Below the pieces are notes generated by a model that searched no databases, had not been told where the DNA came from, and saw nothing but the letters and a program-made list of their open reading frames with translations. Shown piece by piece: positions 207 to 8,109 of a stretch of DNA of 64,000 nt. The position numbers were made by a program, and so were the translations under genes. Source of the stretch: Treponemataceae bacterium. GTDB taxonomy: Bacteria; Spirochaetota; Spirochaetia; Treponematales; Rectinemataceae. Where the stretch lies: the NCBI GenBank assembly GCA_963667725.2, contig CAXXHO010000005.1, positions 544,001-608,000 on the forward strand, written 5' to 3'. Numbering within the stretch: position 1 is the stretch's first letter; each line of letters starts with the position of its first letter.

Positions 207-1847
207 GGGATTCCTGAAGAACCCGCTTTTCAATCTTTCAAGCCGCTCTCAACAGCCCCATTGGTATAAATTTTAATCGTTCTGCTATTTCAATAATCGT
301 ATCAATGAGCAACACAAAAAGGGCTTTCGCCTTTCTCCTTGCCAACACCATGAGGTTCATCACCAAGAATACCATCATGATGGAAGTCTCGCTCGTTTCC
401 TTAAGCTTCGTTCCAATACTATCGAGCGTATAACGTCGTTTCGCTTCTCCAAACTTGCCCTCTACCGCGATCCTCATGCTCTCATCTTCTCGCTCGATTC
501 TTTTTTGTTCACGTATTCGTTCTTTATTCTTGCCGTTAACCTTGAACGGCCTTCCCAGCTTCGGCCCCGATAATCGTATCCCATACTCTTGGCAGTACTG
601 CAGATTCTCCCTCGTCCTATAGATCTTATCGGCGCATACCGCTTCTGGATATCTCCCATATCGCCGCTTATAGCTTTCTATTTGCCCTTTCAAATCTTTG
701 CATTCGTTGTAGGAATCCCATGAGAGCCTATAGACTTCCGCCATTCCATCAACAAGGCTCAACGAGAGCTTCGCTCCAAACTCATACATTCCTCGGGCCT
801 TTCCTCTCGCGATCGGACGCACCCAAGGCTTACTTATGCTTAAGATCCTTCCTTCTATCGACCAGGTGTCACTGCGGTACAATTCTCTCTGCTGGCGGAC
901 CAATTCTCCGATTACCCACAGATCCTGCCGCTGCTTTCTCGAGAGCGAAGTTATCCCTACTTTGTCCTTGTATTCATTGATCAACCGCAGGTTCCGCTCG
1001 ACATATTGGATCTGCGTTTTCAACGCTCTCCTTATCGTATTCACTCTCGGCTTTCGGTTCCGTATGAAGGTCAGAAACTCTTTTCTCGCCTTCTTCCTAT
1101 ACGTCCTTGGTTTTTCCCAACCCTCCGGCATTTCTTTCTGGAGCGTATCGATGATACTTTCAGTCTTCCTTCTCGCTTCATCCAGCAAGGTCACATCATG
1201 GGGGAATCTCATATCTTCGGGAGCGCAGGTAGCATCAACGATCAAGGTCCCTTTATTCTCTTGCCCTTTCTCTTCTCCATCCCCTGCGCCGTTGCCTTTA
1301 TCTTCATCATCATGGTGTTCATCGTCGGCTTTGCTCTTCTCGATGATCAATGAATTCACTTCTTTCAGGACGTCAGCAGATAATCGTTTCCTGAAATGCA
1401 CCATCATGCTCGGATCGAAAGGTATCTCATATTTGTATCCTTCGTATCCTAAGAAGAACTGTAGATAAGGACTCTCTCGAATATCCTCCACCAGTTCTTC
1501 ATCTGAAAGATTCTTCTTCTCTTTTATTATGAGAGCGCCTAACGCGACTCTCACCGGTATCGCCGGCCTTCCATTATTAGCGACGAACAGCTTTGAATAT
1601 TTCTCTTCGACATCTTTCCAAGGGATCAGGCTTGCCAAGATTACCCAACGATTATCCGCTTTCAAGCTGCCGCCGAACACCATGTCGAACTGATCAAACT
1701 CAGGCGTATACTTTGGTATTCTGTACATCTTCGCCTTCCAAGTGCACGACTTTTTCACGCTTTTCTTCAATTTCCGTGCACTTTTCCGGTCCATTATATC
1801 ATATATTCCTTTAACTGATTTGACTTTATTTCTTTTTCAGGAGCCCC
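207..1847 (-). mobile_element. IS5-family insertion sequence, 1641 bp
   Basis: Imperfect 15-bp terminal IRs (GGGATTCCTGAAGAA at 207-221; GGGGCTCCTGAAAAA on minus from 1847, 12/15 match), flanked by direct repeat TAGATA at 201-206 and 1848-1853; one transposase ORF; GC higher than the flanking cassettes. Confidence 0.92.
238..1794 (-). CDS. IS5-family DDE transposase
   Basis: 518-aa ORF with NRWV..A..IPW, GRP, LSDEELV, SPYLQFFLG, VDAT, YEFGAK, ADKIY and R..VEGKFG..KR motifs typical of IS5 transposases; the true start may be ATG at 1728. Confidence 0.92.
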   Translation of the reverse strand: MDRKSARKLKKSVKKSCTWKAKMYRIPKYTPEFDQFDMVFGGSLKADNRWVILASLIPWKDVEEKYSKLFVANNGRPAIPVRVALGALIIKEKKNLSDEELVEDIRESPYLQFFLGYEGYKYEIPFDPSMMVHFRKRLSADVLKEVNSLIIEKSKADDEHHDDEDKGNGAGDGEEKGQENKGTLIVDATCAPEDMRFPHDVTLLDEARRKTESIIDTLQKEMPEGWEKPRTYRKKARKEFLTFIRNRKPRVNTIRRALKTQIQYVERNLRLINEYKDKVGITSLSRKQRQDLWVIGELVRQQRELYRSDTWSIEGRILSISKPWVRPIARGKARGMYEFGAKLSLSLVDGMAEVYRLSWDSYNECKDLKGQIESYKRRYGRYPEAVCADKIYRTRENLQYCQEYGIRLSGPKLGRPFKVNGKNKERIREQKRIEREDESMRIAVEGKFGEAKRRYTLDSIGTKLKETSETSIMMVFLVMNLMVLARRKAKALFVLLIDTIIEIAERLKFIPMGLLRAA

Positions 1848-2131
1848 TAGATATCATCTAATCTAGGATAGTTCTTCTTTTCATTGGCATTTACCCAACC
1901 TACTACTTTCTCATCTTCATATGCCAAGTATCCTTTCATTCTGCCTGTTTCTATAAGCCATTTTGCATATTCTTTTCTTCTATCTGATTGGTTTACATAT
2001 TCTCTTGGTTTTGGGTAATAAAAAGCAGTACAGTAGCAGCCATTCCAATCTTCATGATCTAAAAATGCCCGATTATCAAAGAAATCAAACCAATCAGACA
2101 TTGTAACTGGGCTTAACTCTTTAATTATCAT
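1848..2131 (-). pseudogene. 5' part of IS-disrupted GNAT cassette gene
   Basis: 94-aa ORF (CYC motif, GYLAYEDEKVVGW) with AGGAG RBS; its TAG stop is created by the target duplication plus the first IS base. Confidence 0.88.
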
Positions 2132-2164
2132 TGTAAGCTCCTAGGGCGCGCGTTAAGCGCGTCC

Positions 2165-2288
2165 GTCCAACATTGGCTTAACCTTTAAATCCGTGCCTGA
2201 GCTATTGCGAAGGCTTGGCGTGGTTTGTGCATGGGCTTTCTGCACAAACCATGACAAAGGATTTATAAGGTTGAAGCAGGTGTTGGGC
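2165..2288 (-). mobile_element. attC site (124 bp)
   Basis: GTCCAAC...GTTGGGC core boxes with an imperfect palindrome between them; homologous to the other five sites. Confidence 0.93.
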
Positions 2289-2296
2289 GCATATTT

Positions 2297-2983
2297 CTAC
2301 CATATATAAGGTATTAATCTATATTTTACTCTCTTCGTATATTCTAAATATCCTTCCAAACCTTCTACTAATACTTTTTCTTCATTTTTGATTCTTAGTA
2401 TCAAAGTAAACGGAAACAGGATCCCAGGTATTAAAGCTATGAATGATCCAAGGAGTAATGGTGAAAATATATATATGGGAATGATGGCTAAGTACATGGG
2501 ATGTCTAACAAATGCATATAGTCCAGTATCGATAAGCTTTTGTTTTTCTTGTACTTCTACTACTCTTGATGCATAACTATTCTGTAACATGACACAAATG
2601 TTCATACTATACCCAAGACTAACCATTATCCATGATACTGCTACAAGCCAATTAGGTACTTTTGACCATTTGAATCGATAATCAAGCCCAGGTAATATAT
2701 ATATTAATAGTATGAGAATTCCTGATACTATAACAAATACAATCTGCTTCTTTTGCTTTTCAGATGTTTTCATTCTTTTTTCTAGTAAAGACTTATCTTT
2801 CTTGTAGAGTACTATGAATCCTATGCCCATCAATAAAAGCATGGTACCGATGTAAAGCCACCCATTTAAATATGAGAAGGAACCGGCTGTCAAGAAAAAT
2901 AATAAACCAAGCATTATGCCAACAGTTATATATCTTAAAAGAACTGCAATAATGAGTTTTCTATTTTCTTGGGTATTTGCCAT
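2297..2983 (-). CDS. Isoprenylcysteine carboxylmethyltransferase-family membrane protein (gene cassette)
   Basis: 228 aa, hydrophobic, LIDTGLYAFVRHPMY and RIKNEE...GY.EY..RVKYRLIP motifs; AGGAGG RBS; bounded by attC sites. Confidence 0.88.
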   Translation of the reverse strand: MANTQENRKLIIAVLLRYITVGIMLGLLFFLTAGSFSYLNGWLYIGTMLLLMGIGFIVLYKKDKSLLEKRMKTSEKQKKQIVFVIVSGILILLIYILPGLDYRFKWSKVPNWLVAVSWIMVSLGYSMNICVMLQNSYASRVVEVQEKQKLIDTGLYAFVRHPMYLAIIPIYIFSPLLLGSFIALIPGILFPFTLILRIKNEEKVLVEGLEGYLEYTKRVKYRLIPYIW

Positions 2984-3040
2984 AAAGGAACCTCCTAAGA
3001 TTTTTGTTATTTAGGTATTCTTGCGCGCGTCAGCGCGTCC

Positions 3041-3154
3041 GCCCAACATTGGCTTAACCCTTAACGCGTACTTTGGCGTGGTTTATGCTTCGCGAACGCA
3101 GTGAGCTGCACAAACCATGACAATAGCGTTATAGGGTTGAAGCAGGTGTTGGAA
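3041..3154 (-). mobile_element. attC site (114 bp)
   Basis: GCCCAAC...GTTGGAA; arms GCTTAACCCTTAACGC and GCGTTATAGGGTTGAAGC pair with an extra G and T on the plus strand. Confidence 0.95.
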
Positions 3155-3159
3155 GTCTT

Positions 3160-3717
3160 TTACTCTACTACCAACTTCATCAACATAACATTATGTTCAT
3201 CAAAGCCATCAAATCTAAATCCTATACTCTCCCAAAACCGTTTATTCCTTTCATTTGAAACATTGAGCTCAAAGTACTTTGCTCCCTGTTCCATTACAGA
3301 CTTTTTAAGAATCATAAAATACTCTTTCCCTAAACCTCTATTTCTATACTCTGGTAGTATACAATATTCTGATATAAAGCATTTTCCATCTTCTGAAAGA
3401 TACGTACCATAATACGCAAACCCAACTACTTCTTCTTTCAGCATAAGAAATGCAAAAAAGAATGTATCGATATCTCTTTTTGAAAGTGCATGGAGTACAT
3501 TTCTATACTCAGAAGAAAAGAACCATTCTTTATCTTCTTGTGATAACACTCTACCAATAGATGAGTTAGGTAAAATATCTTTTACCATGTATTCATCCAT
3601 CATAATCCAAAATTCCTTTAGCTCTTCTTCAGTGTCCAATATTTTGATTGTCATGCTTTTGTAACCAATAGTCACATACTCTCCTATATGAATACAGGAC
3701 AATAAATAACTTAACAA
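3160..3717 (-). CDS. GNAT-family N-acetyltransferase (gene cassette)
   Basis: YCILPEYRNRGLGK motif A and RFWESIGF motif; start more likely GTG 3675 or ATG 3654. Confidence 0.88.
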   Translation of the reverse strand: MLSYLLSCIHIGEYVTIGYKSMTIKILDTEEELKEFWIMMDEYMVKDILPNSSIGRVLSQEDKEWFFSSEYRNVLHALSKRDIDTFFFAFLMLKEEVVGFAYYGTYLSEDGKCFISEYCILPEYRNRGLGKEYFMILKKSVMEQGAKYFELNVSNERNKRFWESIGFRFDGFDEHNVMLMKLVVE

Positions 3718-3778
3718 ATTAATTCTACCGCTAATTTTGTATAGAAAGACTTTATCTTCCCCTGCGCCGGAGGCGTCC

Positions 3779-3891
3779 TTCCAACATTAGCTTAACCCTT
3801 AACGCGTACATTGGCGCGGTTTGTGCTTGCGAGCGAAGCGAGTTGCACAAACCGTGACAATAGCGTTATAGGGTTGAAGCAGGTGTTAGCT
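3779..3891 (-). mobile_element. attC site (113 bp)
   Basis: TTCCAAC...GTTAGCT; nearly identical to the site at 4532. Confidence 0.95.
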
Positions 3892-3927
3892 GCCAGTACT
3901 CTACTTATTAACTTTTACAGTAACGAT

Positions 3928-4485
3928 TTATAAAGTTCTACTCTTAACCCAATCTTCTCTCAAGATTGCATACAAGCATGAATCTTTCCATTCACCGTTC
4001 TTATACTCAGTCTGCCTAAAGTAACCTTCTCTTCTAAACCCTAACTTCTTCAGCAATCCTATTGATGCTTTATTATTGTAATCAACTCCTGCTTGTATTC
4101 TGTTTCGCTTCATTACATCAAACATAAAACCTAGTAATGCATTTACTGCTTCAAATCCATACCCAAGTCTTTGATACTCTGGCCGTATCGCATACCCTAT
4201 AGCACTTCTTTCATTGTTATAATCCCAATAGCTTATAGCTATATCTCCTATAACCTTATCTCCTAAAAGTATAACAAAGACTGAATATCCATTATCTTTA
4301 TTGAACTCGGTAATATTGCTTTTTAAATACTCTTTTAAATCTTCAACAGAATCTTGTTTCTTCGTATACCATACGTAGACTCTTGGATCTGAACGGTACT
4401 CGAATAGTTGTTCTAGATAGTGATCAGAGTATTCACGAATCAGCAATCTATCTGTTTTAATATCTTCAAACTGCATGATTTTCAC
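3928..4485 (-). CDS. RimJ/RimL-type GNAT acetyltransferase (gene cassette)
   Basis: IKTDRLLIRE N-terminus, IGYAIRPEYQRLGYG and N.AS..LL.KLGFRREG motifs. Confidence 0.9.
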   Translation of the reverse strand: MKIMQFEDIKTDRLLIREYSDHYLEQLFEYRSDPRVYVWYTKKQDSVEDLKEYLKSNITEFNKDNGYSVFVILLGDKVIGDIAISYWDYNNERSAIGYAIRPEYQRLGYGFEAVNALLGFMFDVMKRNRIQAGVDYNNKASIGLLKKLGFRREGYFRQTEYKNGEWKDSCLYAILREDWVKSRTL

Positions 4486-4531
4486 TCTATTTAAGTTACA
4501 GATTCAAAATATCCAAGCGCCGAAGGCGTCC

Positions 4532-4644
4532 AGCTAACATTGGCTTAACCCTTAACGCGTACATTGGCGCGGTTTGTGCTTGCGAGCGAAGCGAGCTGCA
4601 CAAACCGTGACAATAGCGTTATAGGGTTGAAGCAGGTGTTAGAT
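4532..4644 (-). mobile_element. attC site (113 bp)
   Basis: AGCTAAC...GTTAGAT with conserved arms. Confidence 0.95.
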
Positions 4645-4651
4645 TTCTTCT

Positions 4652-5149
4652 TTAATTAACTACCTTATCTATATATAATCCGCAATCTGGTACAAACTTA
4701 TTTTCCTTTAAAAGTTCTAGTACTTCTTCTCGTGTTGCAATTATTGCTTCTTCAACTTCAGTTTCTTGACATTTTATTGCCATTTTATCTATTTCTTGAT
4801 TAAAGACCCATACATCAACAAAATGCGGACTAAAGCCATTATCACCTTTATATTGGTATACGATCTTTCCTCTTTCTTTATCCAAATCAAGTCCTAATTC
4901 TTCTTTTACTTCTTTCAAAGCAGTTTTTAAGCTATCATCTCCAGATACAGCCGAACCACCCGTACATTCCCATAACCCAGGGTAAGGATATTTATCTTTC
5001 TTTCTTTTTGAAATTATAAATTCATTCTTTGAATTCTTTATCCATACATGTACGATAAGATGATATTCATTCTCTTTGAATGCATCGCCACGAAGGATAA
5101 CTTTACCAGTTTTATTTCTATTTGAATCTAATACATCCCAGTATTCCAT
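4652..5149 (-). CDS. Nudix hydrolase (gene cassette)
   Basis: Nudix box GGSAVSGDDSLKTALKEVKEELG preceded by YPGLW. Confidence 0.9.
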   Translation of the reverse strand: MEYWDVLDSNRNKTGKVILRGDAFKENEYHLIVHVWIKNSKNEFIISKRKKDKYPYPGLWECTGGSAVSGDDSLKTALKEVKEELGLDLDKERGKIVYQYKGDNGFSPHFVDVWVFNQEIDKMAIKCQETEVEEAIIATREEVLELLKENKFVPDCGLYIDKVVN

Positions 5150-5274
5150 AATTGTCCCTTACATTGAACTAAAGACTCTAAAAACTTTTAGTCTTGTTAT
5201 CATCATCTGAATAGCCAATTTTGCATTGGCAATAAAAAGTTAAGCATATATCTTTATCCGCCCGCGCAGCGTGA

Positions 5275-5399
5275 ATCTAACATTGGCTTAACCCTTAACG
5301 CCTGCTCCTGAGCGAAGCGAAGGATTGGCGTGGTTTTTGCATTGTTGTTCTGCAAAAACCATGACAAAAGGCGTTATAGGGTTGAAGCATTTGTTATAT
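5275..5399 (-). mobile_element. attC site (125 bp)
   Basis: ATCTAAC...GTTATAT with conserved arms. Confidence 0.93.
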
Positions 5400-5876
5400 G
5401 CTTTTCTTTTATCAATAATCTTCTATGCTTTCGTTTTCTTAATTACTATTCAATTTTTTATTATAGTTTTCTATAATCTTATTTCTATTTATTCTCTTAT
5501 TATCATATATTATTCATTTTTACTATAATTTTCTTGAAGTAAACTTAAAATATTGAAGCGCTATACTTTTAGATCATGAAGAATACGAAAGCATCCTTCA
5601 ATCGAAAGCCAGCTTTCATATTCGGCTGCTTTCGTATTCTTCAATATTCTTGTAAGTATTCTTATAATATTTTTGATTTTTTTAGTCTTCTATTATTTCT
5701 TTTAAATATTTATCGCAATAATAGAAAATATGACACACTATCACAATGGAATCATAAAAAGGATTTCGAGGACCAAGGCACAAGATAAAATATAGTATTA
5801 TCAAAGAGATCACTAAAAATCTTTTACCGATGCACTCAATCTTTGGTCTTTCTTGCGCGCCGCGTCAGCGGCGTCC
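5400..5876 (-). other. ORF-less integron cassette containing a long hairpin
   Basis: Bounded by complementary cores GTTATAT/ATATAAC; no minus-strand ORF of 60 aa or more in the track; perfect 17-bp inverted repeat at 5577-5593 and 5627-5643. Confidence 0.8.
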
Positions 5877-6001
5877 ATATAACATTGGCTTGACCCTTAA
5901 CGCCCGCTCCTGAGCATAGCGAAGGATTGGCGTGGTTTGTGCATTGTTGTTCTGCACAAACCATGACAAAGGGCGTTATAGGGTCGAAGCAGGTGTTAGA
6001 C
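5877..6001 (-). mobile_element. attC site (125 bp)
   Basis: ATATAAC...GTTAGAC with conserved arms. Confidence 0.95.
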
Positions 6002-6659
6002 GAATTCCCCTTTTAATAAACTCTTCTATAGTTTTACTGATTGTTTTTAGTATCTCTATATCTTGATCTACTTTTCCTATCTCTAATATGTGATTCGCAC
6101 CCTCTATCTCAAGTACCTTAATATTTTGTCTCTTATAAAGTTCTTCTAATCCCTCTATCTTATAATTACTATCTGCCATACTTCCAATTACTAGCATAGC
6201 ATTATCAATTGTTATGATCTTTTTAAGAATTCTATCCCATTCCGTACCTGGCGTTATTAGGATAAAAGAACTCTTTTTCATTATCTCTTCATCAGTAAAC
6301 AATCTACTGATGATACTCGTACCCATAGATTTGCCAATAAAGATAATATTCCTATAAGCTTTACTTATTTTATCAATATAGTCTTTTACCAAGACATTAT
6401 CTTCTTCAAAATAAGTATCTTGATCTGACTCAAGCATCTTTAGAAAAGAAGTATTTTTTGAATAATCAAAATCGATCCCAACATAATCACACTTGAGCTC
6501 TTTTGCTATACTTTTTGAATAATATAGTATTGGATGATTGATAGTATAGCTAAAGCCTCCAATAATAATTATGAGTGTATCAATACTCTTGTTAAGTTGA
6601 GATTCAATGATAATACTCGTTCCATCTTTTCTTTCAATGCCCATATTATTTACCCACAA
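5976..6659 (-). CDS. Alpha/beta-fold hydrolase (first cassette after attI)
   Basis: GKSMG nucleophile elbow, GSMAD and EGANH motifs; stop codon lies inside its attC; start may be ATG 6644. Confidence 0.82.
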   Translation of the reverse strand: MWVNNMGIERKDGTSIIIESQLNKSIDTLIIIIGGFSYTINHPILYYSKSIAKELKCDYVGIDFDYSKNTSFLKMLESDQDTYFEEDNVLVKDYIDKISKAYRNIIFIGKSMGTSIISRLFTDEEIMKKSSFILITPGTEWDRILKKIITIDNAMLVIGSMADSNYKIEGLEELYKRQNIKVLEIEGANHILEIGKVDQDIEILKTISKTIEEFIKRGIRLTPASTL

Positions 6660-6711
6660 TGAATATTTCTTTATGAACTAATTAATGTAAAATTTGCTCC
6701 CCGTAGGGTGC

Positions 6712-6740
6712 GTCTAACATTTATTGGACAGATCGAAGAA
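6712..6740 (-). mobile_element. attI site (extent approximate)
   Basis: Core GTTAGAC on minus (6718-6712) complements the first cassette's attC core; upstream TCCAATAAAT lacks the attC hairpin; lies between intI and the array. Confidence 0.8.
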
Positions 6741-6876
6741 AAGAGAAGATTTCAATTTTTGCTGAACCATGTAAGATGCTGGATAAAATGGGAAAATAGG
6801 GGCAAATAATTTTAGGGAAATAAGATAGGTACATGGTTGAGAGAAAAAGTCAGGAATTTAGACAGTTTAATATAGT

Positions 6877-8109
6877 TTAAAGACCGTCTGCGGGGCTGCG
6901 GACGCCTCCTGGGCCTCGGTTGAGAACGTGCGTGTAGATCATCGTCGTTTTGACGTCGCTGTGGCCGAGAAGTTCCTGTACGGTGCGTATGTCATAGCCG
7001 CTTTCTAAAAGATGTGTGGCGAAGGAATGGCGGAAGGTGTGGCAGCTAGCGCGTTTGGCGATGCCGGCTTTCACTATGGCTTCGTGAACGGCGCTTTGCA
7101 GAATGCTCGGGTCCATGTGATAGCGCCCTTGCTGGCTGGTTGCGGAATTTTTCCAGCGGCGTTCTTGCGGGAAGACCCATTGCCATGCCCAATCGGTTGA
7201 TGCGTTTGGGTATTTTTTTTCGAGGGCGTTGGGGATGGGGACTCGACCCCATCCTTCTGCCAGGTCTTTGTCATGTATTATTTTGACTTGTAATAGATGG
7301 TCGCTCAAGGCTTTTTTCAATGTTTCGGGGAGCATAGTGACGCGATCTTTTGCGCCTTTCCCGTTGCGGATCAGGATTTCATTGCGGGAAAAATCGATGT
7401 CCTGTACACGGAGTTCAAGGCATTCCATGATCCTGATGCCTGTACCGTACATGAGAGATGCCGCGAGCCATTTGTCGCCTTTGAGGCCGAGTAGGACTTC
7501 CCTTACTTCCTGTCTGCTCATCACGACGGGGAGGCGTTTGGGTTTCTTGGCCCTGATCACTTCGCCGACATCTCCGACGGGTATGTTCATTACATTTCGG
7601 AAGAAGAAGAGCAGGGCGGCAAGCGCTTGGTTTTGCGTGGAGGCGCTCACGTTCTCGGTGACAGCCAGGCGGCTGAGGAAGGTGTTGATTTCGGCGCCGC
7701 CGAGGTTTTTGGGAGATTTCCCCTTGTTGGATTCCAGAAAGCGTCGAAGCCATTTTTCGTAGGATTCCTTCGTCCGGTCGCTGTAGTGGCGAGCGGAGAG
7801 GGCCGCAAGATATCGCTGGAGGTAGGGTGCTTGTGTATCGGGCGCTGCTTGGCGGCAAGGTTCGACAAATAGTTCCTTGAGGCCAATTTTTTTTTGTGGG
7901 TCTACTTCGATGGCGCTGAAGAGGCCGGTATCGTAAAGGGCTTTTAGAAGTTGGCGTACATTGCCTTTGTTGTCGGGAAGGCGGAATACTTTTCGAATTT
8001 TGTCCCAACGGCTGTCAGCGATTTTCCGCACGACATCGAAAAGTTTCGGGTCATAGGGCAGGCTGATGGAAAGGTAACCGTTTTCCGATCCAGTGATTGA
8101 AACGATCAT
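6877..8109 (-). CDS. intI: Integron integrase with N-terminal extension, co-oriented with cassettes
   Basis: Tyrosine recombinase motifs YGTGIR, GKGAKDR, HTFRHSFATHLLE, LLGH, TTMIYTHV, plus integron-type VSASTQNQALAAL and the insertion ALEKKYPNA..W.WQWVFP; GGGAGG RBS before ATG 8109 (410 aa). Confidence 0.96.
   Translation of the reverse strand: MIVSITGSENGYLSISLPYDPKLFDVVRKIADSRWDKIRKVFRLPDNKGNVRQLLKALYDTGLFSAIEVDPQKKIGLKELFVEPCRQAAPDTQAPYLQRYLAALSARHYSDRTKESYEKWLRRFLESNKGKSPKNLGGAEINTFLSRLAVTENVSASTQNQALAALLFFFRNVMNIPVGDVGEVIRAKKPKRLPVVMSRQEVREVLLGLKGDKWLAASLMYGTGIRIMECLELRVQDIDFSRNEILIRNGKGAKDRVTMLPETLKKALSDHLLQVKIIHDKDLAEGWGRVPIPNALEKKYPNASTDWAWQWVFPQERRWKNSATSQQGRYHMDPSILQSAVHEAIVKAGIAKRASCHTFRHSFATHLLESGYDIRTVQELLGHSDVKTTMIYTHVLNRGPGGVRSPADGL

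What the first reader, a model, noticed from the sequence alone, without database searches (positions are those of the whole stretch)
2147..6711. Every cassette 5' end carries a C-G...A-G mini-hairpin ending exactly 3 nt from the recombination core
Seen: on the plus strand, just outside each RYYYAAC core, there is a GC-rich hairpin in AT-rich DNA: CGCGC-GTTAA-GCGCG (2147-2161), CGCGC-GTCA-GCGCG (3024-3037), CGCC-GGA-GGCG (3765-3775), CGCC-GAA-GGCG (4518-4528), CGC-GCA-GCG (5263-5271), CGCCGC-GTCA-GCGGCG (5858-5873) and CCC-GTA-GGG (6700-6708). In 7 of 7 cases a 3-nt spacer follows (TCC in five), the loop starts with G and ends with A, and it is closed by C-G, while stems vary. Known: d(cGNAg) and related loops form unusually stable single-stranded DNA hairpins through a sheared G.A pair; attC recombines as a folded bottom strand, which here is the plus strand (it carries the extrahelical G and T). 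The standard attC model ends at the core and has no such element. Inference: an accessory strand-specific ssDNA structure that travels with each cassette and affects attC folding, integrase recognition or cassette genesis. I do not know of a description but cannot check the literature.
Basis: partly seen in the sequence, partly recalled or inferred. Interest (0 to 1): 0.85.

Follow-up and report, generated by a model that had tools for sequence, protein, structure and literature searches.

The report
Extra flipped-out thymine beside integron sites
In one group of spirochaete bacteria, mobile gene cassettes carry a previously unnoticed folded-DNA mark (a looped-out thymine held by a tiny hairpin, or by the cassette's own two ends) right next to the site where they are cut and pasted, probably as an extra handle for the integrase enzyme.

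Summary
The seven hairpins are real and generalise: 154 of 243 held-out attC sites of this superintegron have one ending 3 nt from the core, against 8.7 in shuffles. 'Every cassette' is wrong (103 of 145 cassette families), and the hairpin is half of the element. The base 5' of it pairs with position -2 (G:C 299, C:G 10, of 324), looping out the T at -3. Hairpin-less cassettes bulge the same position by pairing their own two ends (37 of 42; 2 of 42 with the array neighbour). One fold or the other is present in 139 of 145 families, never both. This T sits at the two-fold mirror position of the known extrahelical T23. Loops and stems follow DNA mini-hairpin rules on the bottom strand only. The element tracks one integrase clade (Treponematales-type) and stays on such cassettes inside class 1 integrons (3 of 3; 0 of 9 others). 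Best reading: an extra extrahelical base read by the R-box integrase monomer; function untested. Not found in ten paper searches or earlier scan notes.

The parts
2146..2163 (+). Element 1: closing G2146, hairpin 2147-2161 (loop GTTAA), bulged T2162, C2163; belongs to the cassette whose ORF (1847-2131, minus) abuts the IS
3023..3039 (+). Element 2: closing G3023:C3039, hairpin 3024-3037, bulged T3038; 5' end of ICMT/PEMT-family cassette (ORF 2297-2983, minus)
3764..3777 (+). Element 3: closing G3764:C3777, hairpin 3765-3775, bulged T3776; GNAT cassette (3160-3717, minus)
4517..4530 (+). Element 4: closing G4517:C4530, hairpin 4518-4528, bulged T4529; GNAT cassette (3928-4485, minus)
5262..5273 (+). 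Element 5: compensated closing pair C5262:G5273, hairpin 5263-5271, bulged T5272; NUDIX cassette (4652-5149, minus)
5857..5875 (+). Element 6: closing G5857:C5875, hairpin 5858-5873, bulged T5874; cassette without a long sense ORF
6699..6710 (+). Element 7: compensated closing pair C6699:G6710, hairpin 6700-6708, bulged T6709; 5' end of the first cassette, next to the attI core
2165..2288 (+). attC (bottom strand = plus)
3041..3154 (+). attC
3779..3891 (+). attC
4532..4644 (+). attC
5275..5399 (+). attC
5877..6001 (+). attC
6712..6718 (+). attI/first-cassette core, complementary to the R'' of the attC at 5877-6001
   Evidence: sequence
6877..8106 (-). Integron integrase IntI, same orientation as the cassettes (Treponema type)
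   Evidence: TIGR02249 446 bits, cut-off 265; PDB 2A3V match E 8e-77
7885..8106 (-). N-terminal HARP-like domain of IntI (candidate accessory reader, not shown)
   Evidence: alignment A1; Pfam HARP weak hits in 7 of 12 members, best E 8e-5, the window member itself not among them
238..1794 (-). DDE transposase inserted in the array, ending the run of cassettes visible in the window

Best explanation
Treponematales-type cassettes extend the folded attC bottom strand beyond the R box so as to expose one more extrahelical base, a T 9 bp out from the central spacer on the R' arm: the two-fold mirror of the canonical T23 on the L'' arm. Two folds present it. Fold B: the cassette's own ends pair (-1:+0, -2:+1, T-3 looped out, -4:+2, -5:+3), possible only in the excised circle. 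Fold H: a fold-back supplies the partner strand in cis (G:C or C:G pair at -2, T-3 looped out, 3-7 bp stem, usually capped by a DNA-stable G(N)1-3A loop), possible in the circle and in the array. SHOWN from sequence: both folds, their exclusivity, strand, covariation, lineage, and that they belong to the cassette. INFERRED: the integrase monomer on the R box docks this T as the L-box monomer docks T23, which raises binding and bottom-strand choice for cassette circles of this lineage and so favours their integration at attI.
For: Closing pair across the T is Watson-Crick in 309 of 324 hairpins, with G:C 299 and C:G 10 from 7 sources (Fisher p 1e-15; 1e-9 on 129 distinct elements; kin not independent); -3 is T in 312 of 324. 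A opposite the T is avoided (1 of 103, 25 expected). Fold B: 39, 37, 2, 37, 33 of 42 pairings for -1:+0, -2:+1, -3:+2, -4:+2, -5:+3 against 15, 14, 2, 19, 19 expected; repeated in other genomes (24, 19, 0, 20, 17 of 24); own ends 37 of 42, array neighbour 2 of 42. 139 of 145 families have one fold, 0 both. Homologous genes occur with either fold (9 pairs, up to 73% protein identity). Mirror geometry: T23 is a bulged T 9 bp from the spacer in 164 of 171 scorable attC types, in context R[T]M, the same context as T-3. Core-like repeats on the platform next to attI carry TC at -3,-2 in 70 of 115 hits (7 expected; no bias in 79 in-gene hits). Literature passages: T23/T24 is held in cis by P232/H240/H241 (PMC3053210); extrahelical bases favour integrase binding and add up (PMC5027507). 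H241 is kept in 30 of 30 clade integrases. DNA rule: second stem pair GC or CC in 191 of 191 G...A loops, non-G...A loops have longer stems (5.3-6.2 vs 3.5-3.9 bp), as in PMC13037366 section 2.3.
Against: No binding or recombination data. By the published structure, docking of T24 disables the monomer that holds it (PMC2727003), so the same docking at the R box could brake rather than help; P232 is eroded in the clade (6 of 30 vs 96 of 137), which may or may not uncouple this. ViennaRNA often prefers a G.T wobble to the G:C pair plus bulge (-3 unpaired 0.59, -2 unpaired 0.84), so fold H as drawn would need protein to hold it. First-position cassettes are not enriched for either fold (19 of 24 hairpin, cores picked by eye, vs 237 of 326). 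This genome's own attI regions lack clear TC repeats, and that those repeats bind IntI is inferred. Bulge-like junctions also occur in 14 of 96 non-spirochaete cassettes (9 with T). 18 of 104 cassettes of family f3 fit neither strict fold (many are hairpins with one mismatch). IntI1 integrons carry such cassettes too, so IntI1 at least tolerates the element.
Confidence: 0.5

Rival explanations
1. Same docking, opposite sign: T-3 in the R-box monomer's pocket damps cleavage. Fold H would lower excision inside the large array; fold B, formed only on the product circle, would act as a ratchet against reversal of excision.
For: T24 bound in cis pulls the catalytic tyrosine away (passages of PMC2727003 and PMC5027507); exact mirror position; array of about 260 sites needs stability.
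Against: A brake on nearly all circles (139 of 145) is hard to select, since circles must integrate to be seen; no positional trend along the arrays or at first position.
Confidence: 0.17
2. The element is the mark of, or substrate for, the unknown cassette-building step or an accessory reader such as the integrase's N-terminal HARP-like domain, which could bind the double-flap junction that fold H creates.
For: Near-universal in the clade and independent of cargo; HARP-like domain in all 12 Treponema-family integrase regions L155-L166; spirochaete integrases with a different N-extension have 0 of 24 hairpins. That HARP binds DNA junctions is recalled and comes from note e1-7898699.
Against: HARP-type integrases outside the clade (L152, L213, L214, L223, L269, L030) have no hairpins and ungapped junctions where scorable; L143 has 3 of 3 hairpins with a degenerate N-domain; loop swaps that keep G...A among homologous cassettes point to continuing selection, not a relic; link to own attC subtype is weak (one of four features, p 0.01-0.03).
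Confidence: 0.2
3. The mini-hairpin helps attC fold or keeps SSB off its base; the T is incidental.
For: SSB binds mini-hairpins poorly (PMC13037366 section 4) and melts attC (PMC8946536 passages); selection for stability is clear.
Against: No modelled gain in R-box pairing (0.994 vs 0.993; equilibrium only); does not explain the bulged T, the G:C/C:G covariation, or fold B.
Confidence: 0.07
4. An RNA leader structure on the sense strand that tunes translation or mRNA stability of cassette genes.
For: It lies between attC and the ribosome-binding site; hairpin-less cassettes can have shorter leaders (from 13 nt vs from 22 nt).
Against: G...A loops are on the antisense strand only (0 T...C loops; GNRA = GNYA, 11 vs 12 and 10 vs 10); distance is fixed to the core, not to the start codon (22-901 nt); present on 16 of 107 cassettes without a sense ORF; fold B needs the two cassette ends joined.
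Confidence: 0.04

Closest known systems
Canonical attC site (R and L boxes, UCS, VTS, extrahelical G16 and T23/T24; PMC2727003, PMC5027507)
   Same: Bottom-strand fold, RYYYAAC/GTTRRRY cores, G16 then 6 bp then T23 (164 of 171), own-end core complementarity (145-153 of 153 per position).
   Different: Published extrahelical bases lie by definition on the R''-L'' arm; here an extra one lies on the R' arm outside the R box, with a fold-back hairpin in about 70% of cassettes.
Extended own-end pairing of cassettes, 9-11 consecutive nt (stated in PMC2727003)
   Same: Fold B is own-end pairing beyond the 7-nt core; non-spirochaete cassettes here show the known ungapped form (80, 67, 46, 43 of 96).
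   Different: In the clade the pairing is interrupted by a bulged T at a fixed place (ungapped in 1 of 42, 0 of 24, 0 of 23) or replaced by the hairpin.
Treponema 'same-orientation' chromosomal integrons (Wu 2013, PMC3607928)
   Same: intI in the direction of the cassettes, one integrase clade, attC of 63-68 and over 100 nt.
   Different: That paper (parts 1-3 of 4 read, supplement term-searched) describes only the R/L stem-loop and no flanking structure.
d(GNA)/d(GNNA) DNA mini-hairpins at phage G4 origin, ssiA, N4 promoters (PMC13037366)
   Same: C-G closure, GC or CC second pair, G...A loop, GAA commonest.
   Different: Here the loop caps a scaffold beside a recombination site; the review's section on biological roles names no integron; long-stem variants drop the G...A loop.
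Hairpin next to the IMH site of diversity-generating retroelement targets (recalled, not read or tested here)
   Same: Short GC stem at fixed distance from a reaction site.
   Different: No reverse transcriptase or template repeat was looked for or implicated; no bulged T or alternative fold is recalled for it.

Membership tests
Integron attC site | R'/R'' cores with AAC/GTT, L boxes, unpaired spacer | tested here: met
   independent structure-based finder recovers 130 of 168 sites with 130 of 132 correct
Integron attC site | Extrahelical G16 and T23 on the 3' arm of the bottom strand | tested here: met
   171 of 205 attC types scorable, T23 bulged T in 164
Integron attC site | Cassette ends complementary to each other, adjacent intI and attI | tested here: met
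   210 of 229 cassettes 7 of 7; TIGR02249 over cut-off
Integron attC site | Recombined by IntI | not testable with these tools
   Read laying gave no raw reads on the array
Extrahelical base (EHB) of attC | Single unpaired base in the folded bottom-strand stem | tested here: met
   Covariation on both sides of T-3 in both folds; energy model less clear for fold H
Extrahelical base (EHB) of attC | Located on the R''-L'' arm (definition in PMC2727003) | tested here: not met
   It is on the R' arm outside the R box, so it works like an EHB but is not one of the defined ones
Extrahelical base (EHB) of attC | Contacted by IntI | not testable with these tools
   Pocket residue H241 kept 30 of 30, H240 H or aromatic, P232 6 of 30
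DNA mini-hairpin d(GNA)/d(GNNA) | G...A loop, C-G closure, GC or CC second pair | tested here: met
   191 of 191 centred G...A loops among 237 hairpins; closure C-G 103 of 103, 53 of 53, 74 of 81
DNA mini-hairpin d(GNA)/d(GNNA) | High melting point, sheared G.A pair | not testable with these tools
   from PMC13037366 and the abstract of PMC3201870 only
Known structured RNA family | Rfam match at gathering score | tested here: not met
   3 sub-threshold hits only in 1800-7200
RNA GNRA tetraloop leader | GNRA loops on the transcribed strand | tested here: not met
   G...A on antisense strand only, GNRA = GNYA

The most novel reading that the evidence does not exclude
Treponematales integrons use a longer, two-fold symmetric single-stranded recombination site, and the T-3 mark (with its double-flap junction, possibly read by the integrase's HARP-like N-domain) is a lineage licence that is installed when a cassette is built. 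Cassette 5' ends would then record both where a cassette was made and how the ends of a new gene are joined to attC, giving a direct handle on the open question of cassette genesis.
Probability: 0.22. Interest if true: 0.9.

Novelty: new variant of a known kind. Interest (0 to 1): 0.76.

Why it matters
attC is one of the best-dissected recombination sites and is described as having three unpaired features, all inside the R boxes. A fourth, outside the R box, built in two interchangeable ways and kept across an order of bacteria, changes where the site ends and predicts a new integrase contact that standard attI x attC assays can test with a few point mutants. It also gives a second, independent origin tag for cassettes: three cassettes in class 1 integrons of enterobacterial plasmids that have a spirochaete-type attC still carry it, in line with the spirochaete origin proposed for some such cassettes (PMC8352920). 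The strict geometry of cassette ends constrains models of how cassettes are made.

Tried and rejected
Rfam: nothing at gathering score. Folding aid: no modelled effect. G.T versus A.C wobble inside stems as a strand test: too few cases (0/0, 0/0, 1/4), and the 4 A.C cases lean the other way; not used. My first reading of the conserved G as a terminal G.T pair was replaced by G:C(-2) after covariation; one search used a register rule that mis-set some loops (8,4,10,302), a rule blind to the closing pair (10,2,2,310). Strict link to the HARP-like domain: rejected. Link of hairpin type to own attC subtype: weak. Idea that hairpin-less cassettes are antisense genes: rejected (40 of 46 sense). Direction of effect from array position or first position: no signal. 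Reads for excised circles: raw run X24 laid 0 reads, contig runs are confounded by repeats. Second plasmid search with another attC: no match; in L305 no 5' end was found. L032 (Nitrospira) has plain hairpins with A opposite the T, and L048 looks like chance; only L188 is a true-type element among 212 non-spirochaete flanks from 59 loci. No structure prediction was run, as the question is protein-DNA.
Full report
SETTING. The window is G000:C5:544001-608000. [quoted passage not shown] A profile of the six attC finds 262 sites at E<1e-3 (of 273 loci) on four contigs, and there are three integrases in the genome. The closest integrase loci are titled Spirochaetaceae, Treponema or Treponematales; I call the lineage Treponematales on that basis. 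The plus strand is the recombining bottom strand (G16 and T23 on the 3' arm). Below, -1, -2... count bottom-strand bases 5' of the RYYYAAC core (the cassette's 5' end) and +0, +1... bases 3' of its own GTTRRRY.

OBSERVATION. 7 of 7 hairpins are as described. Held out: 154 of 243 sites, 114 of 175 distinct flanks, against 8.7 and 6.6 in local shuffles; 1 of 235 at the opposite flank. At cassette level 103 of 145 families (from 210 of 229 cassettes with fully complementary ends) have it. Genome-wide, 135 of 177 copies of the commonest element patterns are followed by a core. Homologous cassettes swap loops (GAA, GGA, GTAA, GTAAA) and keep G...A.

STRAND AND CHEMISTRY. Loops begin with G and end with A on the bottom strand in 95 of 103, 47 of 53 and 51 of 81 hairpins (this genome; same and neighbouring families; family f3) and never on the top strand; GNRA and GNYA are equally common. 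In 191 of 191 centred G...A loops the two stem bases before the loop are GC or CC, and hairpins without such a loop have longer stems. These are the rules given for d(GCGNAGC)-type DNA mini-hairpins (PMC13037366, section 2.3 read; abstract of PMC3201870). So the structure is selected as single-stranded bottom-strand DNA.

WHAT IS REALLY CONSERVED. Pairing a cassette's own two ends, as in the excised circle, splits cassettes into two classes. With hairpin (n=103): -1:+0 pairs in 101, -2:+1 in 0. Without (n=42): -1:+0 39 (15 expected), -2:+1 37 (14), -3 unpaired, -4:+2 37 (19), -5:+3 33 (19). This needs own ends: 37 of 42, against 2 of 42 with the neighbour in the array. Other genomes repeat it (24, 19, 0, 20, 17 of 24); in family f3 it is rarer (5 of 23, most of the rest being imperfect hairpins). 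Position -3 is T in 138 of 145, 75 of 77, 97 of 104 cassettes, but 33 of 96 outside. In hairpin cassettes the base just 5' of the hairpin is G in 99 of 103 (background 6%) and -2 is C; where -2 is G the facing base is C, including both TG cases of the window: G:C 299, C:G 10, Watson-Crick 309 of 324; the next pair out is at chance level, 87 of 324. Hence both classes loop out -3 between a pair at -2 and a pair at -4; the hairpin supplies the partner strand in cis. 139 of 145 families have one fold and none has both. Homologous genes occur with either fold (9 pairs). Against: the energy model often draws G.T instead of G:C plus bulge.

MIRROR OF T23. On the L side, three pairs, G16, six pairs, then T23: 9 bp from the spacer (164 of 171 scorable attC types). 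On the R side seven core pairs plus two, then T-3: 9 bp from the spacer, on the opposite arm, 8 paired bases 5' of the scissile AA/C. The local context is R[T]M in both. Published passages say that T23/T24 is held in cis by P232, H240, H241 of the non-attacking monomer (PMC3053210), that this disorganises its active site, that extrahelical bases lie on the R''-L'' arm, and that own-end pairing reaches 9-11 consecutive bases (PMC2727003), and that these bases favour binding and add up (PMC5027507). In the alignment to 2A3V the window protein has S321, Y329, H330 there; in the clade H241 is kept 30 of 30, P232 6 of 30 against 96 of 137. Core-like repeats on the platform downstream of intI carry T-C at -3,-2 in 70 of 115 hits from 70 of 197 loci; that they bind IntI is inferred from spacing like attI1 direct repeats (recalled).

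DISTRIBUTION. With a structure-based finder, 179 of 248 distinct flanks from other Treponematales-type arrays carry the hairpin at the same place, beside attC of 66 to about 130 nt, in 129 distinct forms overall. Six metagenome contigs (L247, L252, L256, L257, L264, L267) were put in this set after I saw their hairpins; four of them are in the integrase tree and fall inside the 41-tip clade (support 0.67). Spirochaetes of other classes: 0 of 24. Non-spirochaetes: 3 of 212 flanks from 59 loci, one of true type; their junctions are mostly ungapped, though 14 of 96 look bulged. In class 1 integrons on plasmids, the three cassettes whose own attC is of this type (aphA16, aac(6')-F72, a hypothetical gene; L303, L304, L306) have the element at their own 5' end, and 0 of 9 other cassettes do, including those that merely follow such an attC. 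Kin are not independent, so p values overstate.

HARP-LIKE DOMAIN. Note e1-7898699 pointed to an N-terminal domain of these integrases. It is present in the clade (weak Pfam HARP hits in 7 of 12) and absent from hairpin-free spirochaete integrases, but HARP-type integrases outside the clade mostly have no such cassettes. It is not sufficient, and remains a candidate.

MECHANISM. Most likely (0.5) the R-box integrase monomer docks T-3, improving capture of circles; the sign could be negative (0.17); a genesis mark or accessory reader (0.2), a folding or SSB role (0.07) and an RNA role (0.04) follow. All functional steps are inferred.

NOVELTY. Ten searches listed no paper on this. Read: PMC3607928 parts 1-3 of 4 and a term search of its supplement; passages of PMC4909258, PMC6557892, PMC3053210, PMC2727003, PMC5027507, PMC9668308, PMC8352920, PMC8632094, PMC5737381, PMC7439510, PMC8946536; abstract and two sections of PMC13037366; abstract of PMC3201870. 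Not available: Coleman 2004, Wu 2012, Stokes 1997, MacDonald 2006 and most subscription papers; their figures, and supplements of the papers above, could mention a flanking repeat. Verdict: real, not universal as a hairpin, part of a larger undescribed attC feature; new variant of a known kind; interest 0.76.

Noticed in passing
G000:C5 about 495900-543800 (outside the window): A 148-151 nt gene-less cassette recurs many times (family of 15 in the clustering, which includes some longer bodies) and a 213-215 nt one 6 times; both use the bulge fold.
   Followed up: no
L030, L032, L033, L192, L194, L223, L233, L243-L245, L262 (intI end to attI): Repeats of consensus RTCC-GYATAAS at about 24 and 55 nt from the attI core and as a palindrome just after the intI stop; they look like accessory integrase sites, shared by many same-orientation integrons.
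   Followed up: partly
L129, L132, L134, L139, L144, L145: Integrases of other spirochaete classes have a different 100-165 aa N-terminal extension (motif like W-Q-V/I-x-Q-A); many integrases in the class of G348 have open frames of 460-520 aa that may be the same.
   Followed up: no
L188 near 8719: A textbook element (G:C closure, bulged T, GTA loop) in an array of a genome from the class of a gammaproteobacterial MAG: possibly a cassette of spirochaete origin.
   Followed up: no
L032 / L151 (Nitrospira): Plain GNA hairpins that run right up to the core with no bulge, at both the attI junction and an attC.
   Followed up: partly
L190, L232, L290, L246: Some non-spirochaete cassettes show a one-base bulge at -3 (T in 9 of 14), so fold B may exist sporadically elsewhere.
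   Followed up: partly
window 2165-6001, inside attC: The long attC sites contain side arms with GCGAAGC-type loops on the bottom strand, so the attC body is branched rather than a simple hairpin.
   Followed up: no
L170 near 3132; G000:C5 479751: Possible intermediates: a decayed or short hairpin together with own-end bulge pairing.
   Followed up: no
window, 3' ends of cassettes: A pyrimidine-rich run follows every R'' on the bottom strand (T at +3 in 95 of 107 hairpin cassettes).
   Followed up: no
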